DNA of 57,359 bases, counting the filler, from Platydemus manokwari (lineage: Eukaryota): the NCBI GenBank assembly GCA_037951405.1. It is 5 parts of 5 records of this genome, joined end to end, with 100 filler letters (N's around TTAATTAATTAA, not from the genome) between each part and the next. Parts side by side here need not be neighbours in the genome. Positions count along the whole stretch, not along the records: positions 36,303 to 46,088 come from JBBMOY011204654.1; 4 more parts are not named here. The stretch is one strand, 5' to 3'. Both the position numbers and the translations under genes were made by a program. The notes under the pieces were generated by a model. The model had not been told where the DNA came from, did no database searches, and worked only from the letters and a program-made list of their open reading frames with translations. Position 1 is the first letter of the stretch. The number at the start of each line of letters is the position of its first letter. Below are positions 38,957 through 40,705 of the stretch, piece by piece.

Positions 38957-40069
38957 AGTCTTACTCTTATCGTATTATTGTCAGTACAGCGATCTGATGC
39001 AATCCCGTTAATCAGGGGAGCATCTAGAGATAAATGTGGAGTGGTTATGTATGAAACGAACTACAAAGGCATCTATCTGAGTCAAAAAATGGCTAGGGAT
39101 GCTACTAGCATTCATCAAGGTGATATCAAAATTTCGAGCTACTTGAATAACAAGATGGATTATCTCTATAATAATCTCCTGTTACAACTCATAGAAATCT
39201 ACCAGAAAACGATACACAGTAACTGCAAAAGGGATAAAAGATGGCAATTGCTTTAACAAATCTCGATTTGTTAACGCCAGTTATCATGAAAACGGTAGAT
39301 ACGATAAAATCAGTGGCAAAGCTCTATACACCTATGAATGCGAAGCAATTTATGCAACGGTCGTGGAGAGCAACAAATGCACGAGAGAATTAGCAGTTAA
39401 TTATAAAAATAAAAAGAGGTATATGCAACCGATCACACACGTATTATTGAGAGAGGGAATGCCACCCCAGTCAGCTGAGTGTAATCCACTCATATCTCCA
39501 TTATACAAAATTGAAAGTAAATGGGTAACCATACCTGACCGACGACCTCCAAGAGACCCAATACAGACTCTGGAGTTAAATATTATCGAAGACAATATCG
39601 AATTTCACTCAATTGAAGATATGGAGCAACGTGGTATATGCACATCACAGGACACTGAAGAGGCCAGACGAGCCCTTGTGTTCCCACAATTACGTGATCG
39701 TGAAATTACAGAAATTATTCGAACTATTTATGCAAATGAGAGACAGTACCAAACTATGACTACTTATTCACAATAGATCATTTCAAGAAGGCAGCTGAGC
39801 ACGTAGCTTATCAAATATGGGGACATATTGCAGCATTTGGGACATTTGTTGCCGGCTGTACAGGGATCTATGTCATTGCAATAATTATCAAAGTAGTAGT
39901 TCATGAACTGATAGCTACCTTCCACTTATATCAAGTTTATGGAGTGTCGCCAAAACTATTATTTGGATTATTCCCAATGTGTGCCAATCACGTATTGCAT
40001 AAACATGATAGGGAGGAAAATCAACTCGTTCTAAAGCTTATGACGCAGAAACATCAACCACTAAGGTAA
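38957..40069 (+). pseudogene. env: Chuvirus-like (Monjiviricetes-type) class III fusion glycoprotein (env), N-terminal half deleted
   Basis: Signal-like SLTLIVLLSVQRSDA, then ordered motifs CGVVMYETNYKGIYL, DIKISSYLNNKMDYL..IYQKTIHSNC, GKALYTYEC..KCTRELAVNYKNKKRYMQPITHVL, ECNPLISPLYKIESKW, GICTSQDTEEARRALVFP and TM region IWGHIAAFGTFVAGCTGIYVIAIIIKVVV..LYQVYGVSPKLL. Confidence 0.88.
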
Positions 40070-40405
40070 ACACCACCCGAATGGTTTCAAGGCTACTTTC
40101 CTCCGAGGTGTACTACGCCGAAAAACTCACCATATAATTCCGATAATGAATCATGATTTAACTCTGACGCAAGAGTAATTTACAAACCAATTCGAACTCA
40201 GGCACAGCAATTGAGACGAACTAGAAAAATGTATAAGTTATTGGACCAAATGGACAAGGCTACGACATCCAAATCAGAACCTAATACAAACACAACGCTG
40301 ACTACTTAACCACTCGAGGAATTAAAGAAATATTAAGAAGAAACCGAACAAATCGAGACCACCTTGTAAAGACAAAATCAAAGCGGTTACACCGAACTAC
40401 ATTAT

Positions 40406-40705
40406 ATGGTTAATGTCGAAAATGCATCTCAGAAATTAATTCATATACGAGTCAATCGGCATATTTCTTTAGCATTAGTGGACACTGGCGCTGACTCCAC
40501 TATAATACATACGAGTATTCTTAACATATACGAACTACAAGGAATCGAGGAAACGAACATAACAATCACAGGCATTAAAGGAAGTGCCTTACCACTAATG
40601 AGAACGTTAAATTGTAAACTCCATTTATGTGGTCAAAAAGTACCAGTCTCTGTTAGAGTTTCTAAATTCTGTTCATATGACTGTGTAATAGGAAAAGATG
40701 TATAA
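40406..40705 (+). pseudogene. Retropepsin aspartic protease of the element
   Basis: ALVDTGADSTII catalytic motif, ITGIKG flap and C-terminal CVIGKD. Confidence 0.92.

What the first reader, a model, noticed from the sequence alone, without database searches (positions are those of the whole stretch)
38957..40705. Chuvirus-like fusogen reads in frame into the protease
Seen in sequence: the glycoprotein TM segment (from 39773), the ~110-codon linker, PR (40406), the pre-RT ORF (40901) and RT/RH (41411) share one reading frame, separated only by isolated point stops. A hydrophobic signal-like stretch ending in SDA precedes the ectodomain. Established: chuvirus-type glycoproteins have been captured by BEL/Pao elements (Anakin) in insects; this host element is Ty3/gypsy by RT/RH motifs. 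Inference: a flavivirus/alphavirus-like polyprotein topology, in which an internal signal sends the ectodomain into the ER and the TM returns PR-RT-IN to the cytosol, giving 1:1 Env:Pol and membrane-tethered Pol.
Basis: partly seen in the sequence, partly recalled or inferred. Interest (0 to 1): 0.85.

Follow-up and report, generated by a model that had tools for sequence, protein, structure and literature searches.

The report
Decayed envelope-before-polymerase gypsy retrotransposon
This is a broken copy of an animal jumping gene whose virus-like membrane-fusion gene sits directly in front of its copying enzymes; close relatives encode both in one long protein that likely threads through the cell's membrane, and the gene order is already published.

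Summary
The fusogen is real. Three pieces between 38864 and 40027 match the chuvirus-type glycoprotein family PF24664, and an intact relative folds like herpes gB (class III). TM, linker, protease and RT/RH do share one frame.

The copy is dead. Env has two frame changes and lacks its N-terminal ~37%, the linker has five stops, and Gag, the 5' LTR and the integrase core are absent. The 'signal ending in SDA' is not a signal. It aligns to predicted beta-strands about 240 residues inside the ectodomain, and the true internal signal, seen in 16 of 16 relatives that have the env start, is missing here.

The polyprotein idea holds for the family. Of the 18 closest env relatives, the 9 that extend past the TM all run on into protease, and three are complete Gag-Env-Pol ORFs of 2,774-3,735 aa. 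The linker's own frame is only weakly supported in this copy.

GAG-ENV-POL Ty3/gypsy elements with gB-type env are published for nematodes, flatworms and bryozoans, so this is a new, decayed member. What I did not find in print is the membrane topology, a second signal-led module after integrase, and tandem proteases in relatives.

The parts
38093..38257 (+). Remnant of the Gag-Env spacer, with a short acidic/Cys motif shared with full-length relatives
   Evidence: Profile of 4 relatives' spacers hits at iE 2.6e-8; tblastn P0121 843-892, E 1.9e-4
38422..38880 (+). 152-codon open stretch, likely spacer, in another frame; no family match
   Evidence: 0 Pfam families; no hit at E 0.05 from 24 relatives
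38954..39001 (+).
   Evidence: Aligns to P0134 387-400, P0129 about 636-650, P0124 265-280; strands E390-393 and E401-403 in the model
38864..39235 (+). Env piece A (end of the strand-rich middle and start of the long central helix); env homology begins here, profile positions 1-236 of 645 are absent
39288..39746 (+). Env piece B (C-terminal ectodomain), in a different frame from A and C
   Evidence: PF24664 E 8.5e-22; family profile iE 1.5e-40
39737..40027 (+). Env piece C: membrane-proximal helix, TM (about 39818-39889) and a short second hydrophobic stretch
   Evidence: PF24664 E 4.6e-12; KD19 2.41, 24 uncharged residues
40028..40429 (+). Env-PR linker, same frame as TM and PR, five stops (40067, 40154, 40307, 40334, 40367)
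   Evidence: TM-to-PR distance 220 codons against 130-263 in 12 relatives where the first PR motif was found
40430..40702 (+). Aspartic protease, followed by a stop at 40703
   Evidence: PF00077 E 1.7e-6
40706..41368 (+). Pre-RT region conserved in relatives and start of RT; stops at 40808, 40847, 41369; only a sub-threshold dCTP-deaminase-like hit
   Evidence: (PF22769 E 0.083, below cut-off)
41372..42385 (+). Reverse transcriptase and RNase H, 338 open codons
   Evidence: PF00078 E 5.7e-20, PF17917 E 4.9e-33; 39-51% identical to 11 env-fused relatives
42675..42896 (+). Integrase zinc finger in another frame; integrase core absent
   Evidence: PF17921 E 8.3e-21; integrase-core profile finds nothing in six frames
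43117..43161 (+). Strongly hydrophobic segment, possibly the remnant of the post-integrase membrane module seen in relatives
   Evidence: KD15 3.17; profile match not significant, iE 0.46; inference
43151..44587 (+). Long, mostly open downstream frame with a few stops; unidentified accessory ORF
   Evidence: no Pfam, no PDB sequence hit, atlas leads only
45404..45421 (+). Polypurine tract followed by TG, the likely start of the 3' LTR; no matching 5' LTR in the contig
   Evidence: Sequence; self-blastn finds no LTR pair

Best explanation
This locus is a decayed, 5'-truncated Ty3/gypsy retrotransposon with a chuvirus/gB-type envelope remnant in front of protease and RT, and it likely descends from an element that encoded Gag, Env and Pol in one reading frame, as its closest relatives do. 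Shown: the homology, the order, the breaks, and the single ORFs of relatives. Inferred mechanism for intact members: Gag is made in the cytosol. An internal signal then likely sends the env ectodomain into the ER and is cut by signal peptidase. The single TM likely stops transfer and returns linker-PR-RT-RH-IN to the cytosol, where the protease would cut itself and Pol free. A second signal after integrase likely sends a further small protein into the ER. Translation would give Gag:Env:Pol 1:1:1, and Pol would be tethered to Env only until the protease acts. This copy cannot do any of this: the signal and the N-terminal half of env, Gag and the integrase core are gone.
For: Closest RT relatives include natural env+Pol single proteins (P0006, P0007) and full Gag-Env-PR-RT-RH-IN ORFs (P0121 3,735 aa, P0126 2,774 aa, P0127 2,974 aa). 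An independent env search listed 150 hits. Among the top 18 (E 2e-14 or better), 9 extend past the TM and all 9 reach a protease; 8 end at or before the TM or in an out-of-frame tail; 1 is a chimera with an ion-channel domain. Env tree: the window sits in a 19-row group (SH-aLRT 86) with 13 fused proteins, 5 fragments and 0 of 64 stand-alone glycoproteins (quick tree). RT tree: the window sits in a 19-row clade (95) holding all 11 fused proteins, on a long branch (1.11 against a median of 0.35), as expected from decay. 16 of 16 relatives with the env start have a hydrophobic stretch just before it. 15 of 15 have an 18-21 residue TM and net charge +3 to +7 after it; the second hydrophobic stretch has 10-14 uncharged residues in 14 of 15. 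Intact relative P0134 folds at pLDDT 82.8 and matches herpes gB (Foldseek E 1.4e-14; Z 10.1, rmsd 6.8, 387 aligned) and chuvirus G (E 3e-43). The linker in the TM/PR frame aligns to the P0121 linker (1 of 500 shuffles; other frames 419 and 489 of 500) and has linker-like composition (P/S/T/Q/E 0.45 against 0.27 and 0.24).
Against: The linker has an excess of stops (p about 0.003). Across 15 relatives no linker frame wins (summed Z 6.8, 6.6 and 6.0; best frame 5, 7 and 3 times). No intact sister copy of this exact family was seen; the nearest relatives are about 50% identical in RT and 35% in env. Relatives are predicted proteins without DNA context, and several are partial. In the RT clade, P0004 has a different small membrane module, not gB, directly before PR. 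The window's own TM is followed by net charge 0. Topology rests on hydropathy only; no signal or TM predictor was available. The env clade's support is below 95.
Confidence: 0.8

Rival explanations
1. In this sub-lineage env ended at a real stop after the TM, the linker was non-coding, and Pol was made separately (splicing or re-initiation); the shared frame is chance or ancestral.
For: Five stops in 137 linker codons, 8 times the rate elsewhere; the count is not excluded for non-coding sequence (P 0.057); the cross-family frame test is inconclusive. The eLife study allowed gaps of up to 2,000 nt between ENV and POL and does not say, in the parts I read, that they are fused.
Against: No stand-alone env in the window's env group; 9 of 9 informative top relatives are fused; the TM-to-PR distance is within the family range; linker composition and the P0121 match favour the TM/PR frame.
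Confidence: 0.11
2. Env and Pol are joined by programmed recoding (readthrough or frameshift) in or near the linker, so Pol is made at a fraction of Env rather than 1:1.
For: A 42-codon open stretch in another frame overlaps three linker stops (40285-40410). P0139 (Gag-Env-four PRs) and P0002 (two PRs-RT-RH-IN) both come from a 21,743-base contig and may be adjacent ORFs of one element (inference).
Against: 11 relatives run from env through RT with no break; five stops cannot all be recoding sites; no recoding signal was tested.
Confidence: 0.06
3. The half-env is a designed or host-co-opted short protein that uses the SDA stretch as a new signal, for example as a dominant-negative restriction factor.
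For: Env pieces hold 0 stops in 358 aligned codons.
Against: Two frame changes inside env; the SDA stretch is a conserved internal strand with a hydrophobic core of about 10 residues; 0 stops is within expectation at 5 per 1,092.
Confidence: 0.03

Closest known systems
GAG-ENV-POL Ty3/gypsy 'errantiviruses' with HSV/gB-type ENV of Nematoda, Bryozoa and Platyhelminthes (Chary and Hayashi, eLife 2026, PMC13524379)
   Same: Ty3/gypsy Pol, gB-type env related to Chuviridae G, env placed before pol; the paper notes ectodomains flanked by a signal and a TM or by two TMs.
   Different: The sections I read do not state that env and pol are one ORF, nor describe topology, a post-integrase module or tandem proteases. 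This copy is decayed. Its place among their clades could not be tested, because their sequences are not usable here.
Nematode endogenous retroviruses (NERV; Sacco et al. 2022, J Gen Virol 103:1739)
   Same: Metavirus-type RT with env and pol in flipped order (as paraphrased in PMC13524379). I recall from the abstract a continuous gag-env-pro-pol ORF; the paper is not held, so this is recalled, not read.
   Different: I do not know whether that paper describes the topology or the post-integrase module.
Anakin: BEL/Pao elements with chuvirus glycoprotein (Dezordi et al. 2020, PMC7642597)
   Same: Same glycoprotein family in an LTR retrotransposon (passages).
   Different: BEL/Pao host rather than Ty3/gypsy. 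Stand-alone glycoproteins of about 650 aa, and one hit with DUF5641 before the glycoprotein (P0249), group apart from this env.
Class III fusogens: herpes gB and chuvirus G
   Same: Fold of intact relative P0134; PF24664 on the window's own pieces.
   Different: Encoded inside a retroelement polyprotein; this copy lacks the N-terminal ~240 residues, which by gB topology (established knowledge plus the model) would hold the fusion loops.
Alphavirus and flavivirus structural polyproteins (recalled)
   Same: Works-like analogy: cytosolic capsid, internal signal, luminal fusogen, stop-transfer TM, further cytosolic enzymes.
   Different: No homology; class II fusogens; RNA viruses.

Membership tests
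Ty3/gypsy (Metaviridae) | Pol order PR-RT-RH-IN | tested here: met
   PR, RT, RH and integrase zinc finger in this order; the core is present in relatives
Ty3/gypsy (Metaviridae) | RT/RH of Ty3/gypsy type rather than BEL/Pao | tested here: met
   PF17917/PF17919/PF17921 hits; RT hits include named errantivirus Pol; GPY/F-type motif in 13 of 15 relatives examined. The tree held no BEL/Pao outgroup.
Ty3/gypsy (Metaviridae) | Paired LTRs, PBS, PPT | tested here: inconclusive
   PPT followed by TG at 45404-45421; no 5' LTR or Gag in the window
Chuvirus/gB-type class III fusogen (PF24664) | Profile match | tested here: met
   Three pieces reach the cut-off of 27 bits: 27, 77.3 and 45.1
Chuvirus/gB-type class III fusogen (PF24664) | gB-like fold | tested here: met
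   Shown on relative P0134 (33-38% identical to the window pieces), not on the window's own piece, whose single-sequence model failed
Chuvirus/gB-type class III fusogen (PF24664) | Complete ectodomain with signal and fusion-loop domain in this copy | tested here: not met
   A profile of the env N-terminal 240 residues finds nothing in six frames; homology starts at position 237 of 645. This makes the copy a remnant; it does not remove it from the family.
GAG-ENV-POL errantiviruses / NERV-like | Env lies before PR-RT | tested here: met
GAG-ENV-POL errantiviruses / NERV-like | Gag before env | tested here: inconclusive
   Gag absent from the window, but a spacer motif that lies between Gag and env in P0121 is present; Gag-Env-Pol order in P0121, P0126, P0127, P0171
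GAG-ENV-POL errantiviruses / NERV-like | Continuous env-pro-pol ORF | tested here: inconclusive
   Met in 9 of 9 informative top relatives; in this copy same frame but five linker stops and a mixed frame test
NERV proper | Monophyly with named NERV RTs and a chromadorean nematode host | not testable with these tools
   No named NERV sequence or host genome held
Anakin (BEL/Pao) | BEL/Pao-type Pol | tested here: not met
   Ty3/gypsy-type Pfam set and RT neighbours

The most novel reading that the evidence does not exclude
The window is a fossil of a clade of retrotransposons that builds everything from one membrane-threaded polyprotein of 2,800-4,800 aa crossing the ER membrane twice over: Gag / signal / class III fusogen / TM / one to several proteases-RT-RH-IN / second signal / an Ig-like or novel surface protein / TM. 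The second protein would be a receptor-binding or accessory partner for the gB-like fusogen, as gD and gH/gL are for herpes gB, and Env trimerisation would cluster the tethered proteases and time maturation.
Probability: 0.35. Interest if true: 0.7.

Novelty: new member of a known kind. Interest (0 to 1): 0.36.

Why it matters
The locus itself is a dead copy and adds only one more member to a published arrangement. Its value is as a pointer. Its relatives show that env and pol are truly one ORF in this clade, with the signals needed for an alphavirus-like topology, which retroviruses and errantiviruses avoid by making Env from a separate spliced RNA. The eLife study leaves open how gB-bearing retrotransposons enter cells without gD and gH/gL. 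The second signal-led module after integrase in these polyproteins is a concrete candidate partner.

Tried and rejected
- Search for longer homologues of env piece B by word index: 0 of 281 candidates; the profile-free HMMER search later found them.
- Single-sequence fold of the window's piece B: pLDDT 29, not used.
- DNA loci of relatives: none in viral contigs (37 stretches, 0 confirmed) or JGI metagenome contigs (198 stretches, 0 confirmed). No genomic context for relatives was obtained.
- No whole genome is held, so sister copies could not be examined. One sequencing run holds the stretch (share 0.78, possibly the source); no RNA holder listed. No reads were laid, so copy number and variation are open.
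- Troyka elements: rejected; they have no env (PMC12440569, parts 1-3 of 5).
- Downstream ORF 43151-44587: a resemblance to DEDDh exonucleases was noted by eye from memory, but Pfam, PDB sequences and the atlas (recognition below threshold) gave no support.
- Profiles of Gag, integrase core, env N-half and the post-integrase tail: no significant hit in the window.
- Linker frame across 15 relatives: inconclusive.
- Earlier scan notes: nothing found.
- Print searches for the fused form: gag-env-pro-pol, gag-env-pol, env-pro-pol, env-pol polyprotein and env-pol fusion returned only PMC13524379 and its preprint; searches found no paper on the topology. The library lacks most subscription papers, including Sacco 2022.

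Full report
Setting. The window is AT-rich (GC 21-36% outside the element) and made of contigs joined by N spacers. The finding lies in a GC 37-42% island on the piece 36303-46088. No whole genome is held. The host is taken to be an animal from the element types present; it was not identified.

What the sequence shows. Three ORF pieces match PF24664, the chuvirus-type fusion glycoprotein, at profile 252-342, 362-516 and 525-608 of 653. They lie in frames 2, 0 and 2, so env changes frame twice. From the TM piece on, linker, PR, the pre-RT region and RT/RH are in one frame, with stops at 40067, 40154, 40307, 40334, 40367, 40703, 40808, 40847, 41369 and 42386. The integrase zinc finger follows in another frame. 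Profiles built from natural relatives find no integrase core, no Gag and no env N-terminal half in any of the six frames; env homology starts at position 237 of 645. A polypurine tract followed by TG lies at 45404-45421, and no LTR pair is present. The element is a truncated, decayed copy.

The signal claim is wrong for this copy. The stretch ending in SDA aligns to internal residues of the relatives that cover it, 230-255 residues after the mature start of env. In the model of P0134 these are short beta-strands. The real internal signal is a hydrophobic stretch (KD12 1.9-3.5) just before a conserved Asp-Cys start motif. It is present in 16 of 16 relatives that contain that start; the other 8 of the 24 proteins examined do not contain it.

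The fusion claim is right for the family. Searching with the window's RT among longer proteins gave 563 hits. The top ten (47-52% identity) stand apart from the rest, and two of them carry PF24664 and RT in one protein. Cluster look-ups and a second search gave complete Gag-Env-PR-RT-RH-IN ORFs: P0121, P0126 and P0127. An independent HMMER search with env piece B listed 150 of 240 hits. Among the top 18, nine extend past the TM and all nine reach a protease; eight end at or before the TM or in an out-of-frame tail; one is a chimera. Three lower hits are also fused (P0171, P0175, P0219), which makes 12 of 150. The rest are stand-alone glycoproteins of about 600-900 aa or fragments.

Trees. An env tree of 87 rows (quick method; near-duplicates, the chimera, short matches and most fragments left out) puts the window with 13 fused proteins and no stand-alone one, at support 86. 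An RT tree of 47 rows (11 fused, the window, and 35 picked from the 120 listed hits) puts it in a clade of support 95 with all 11 fused proteins, on a branch three times the median length.

The linker in this copy is the weak point. For: its length is in the family range, its composition in the TM/PR frame is linker-like, and that frame alone aligns to the P0121 linker (1 of 500 shuffles). Against: it holds 5 stops in 137 codons against 5 in 1,092 elsewhere (p about 0.003), and across 15 relatives no frame wins. The segment was singled out after the fact, and hidden compensating frame changes are possible. I give about 0.11 to a real stop in this sub-lineage.

Fold. The window's own piece did not fold alone. 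The natural relative P0134, with an 83-row alignment, gave pLDDT 82.8. It matches herpes gB in the PDB (Foldseek E 1.4e-14; Z 10.1, rmsd 6.8 over 387 residues) and chuvirus glycoproteins in BFVD (E 3.3e-43). The part missing from the window corresponds to the long hairpins of the N-terminal half, where gB carries its fusion loops (inference from the model and established gB topology).

Likely mechanism in intact members (inferred). Internal signal into the ER, luminal gB-type ectodomain, one TM, cytosolic Pol. Hydropathy supports a single TM: 18-21 uncharged residues followed by net charge +3 to +7 in 15 of 15 relatives. The second hydrophobic stretch has only 10-14 uncharged residues in 14 of 15, too short to span the membrane. 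Gag shares the ORF, so translation would be 1:1:1; particle ratios and the duration of tethering are untested. 12 of 13 relatives with a complete integrase have a second signal-like stretch after it, three with an Ig domain, and several have tandem proteases.

Prior knowledge. Chary and Hayashi (PMC13524379) report that nematode, bryozoan and flatworm elements carry only gB-type ENV, arranged GAG-ENV-POL, and that the glycoprotein resembles Chuviridae env. I read the abstract, section 5 part 1, section 6, section 9 part 1, sections 14 and 22, passages, and rows of supplementary file 1; for the preprint, passages and the first part of the legends. Their figures, which I could not see, may draw the ORFs as continuous. 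Sacco et al. 2022 is not held; I saw only its citation and paraphrase, and recall that its abstract describes a continuous gag-env-pro-pol ORF. Anakin was checked in passages of PMC7642597; Troyka in parts 1-3 of PMC12440569. Eight searches found no paper on the topology or the post-integrase module, within a library that lacks most subscription journals.

Verdict. This is a new, decayed member of a known kind, with interest 0.36. The remaining interest lies in the relatives' polyprotein layout, not in this locus.

Noticed in passing
Relatives P0121, P0124, P0126, P0127, P0129, P0136, P0175, P0278, P0280, P0002-P0005: After the integrase C-terminal motif the ORF runs on for 370-1,570 aa. 12 of these 13 have a signal-like hydrophobic stretch followed by 200 or more residues, most with a later TM; P0124, P0126 and P0127 carry an Ig domain there.
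   Followed up: partly
Relatives P0136, P0139, P0141, P0144, P0280, P0002, P0010: Tandem aspartic protease domains between env and RT and also after integrase (P0280 has 7 regions matching the window's PR), with ankyrin repeats in P0280 and P0010.
   Followed up: partly
P0004: A small signal-ectodomain-TM module, resembling by eye its own post-integrase module, lies directly before PR in place of gB.
   Followed up: no
window 43151-44587: Long, mostly open frame downstream of pol inside the element; exonuclease-like by eye, unsupported by four searches.
   Followed up: partly
P0129: A spacer-env-Pol polyprotein of this clade is deposited under a Flavobacteriaceae MAG (HBK71150.1), probably eukaryotic contamination.
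   Followed up: no
P0133: A fragment of this env family fused to an ion-transport domain in one predicted protein; gene-call chimera or host exon capture.
   Followed up: no
window 9759-10106: Second, more decayed RT-RH fragment.
   Followed up: no
window 11055-12170: 371-aa ORF with no Pfam match, probably a host gene.
   Followed up: no
window 7327-7887, 34861-35349, 55040-56474: DNA transposon remnants: mariner-type transposase PF01359, Tc5 HTH PF03221, and an element with long terminal inverted repeats.
   Followed up: no
window 9081-9180, 27500-27599, 36203-36302, 46089-46188: Artificial N spacers join separate contigs; the element lies on the 9.8-kb piece 36303-46088. Its last 108 bases are 98% identical to the end of another piece (27392-27499).
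   Followed up: partly
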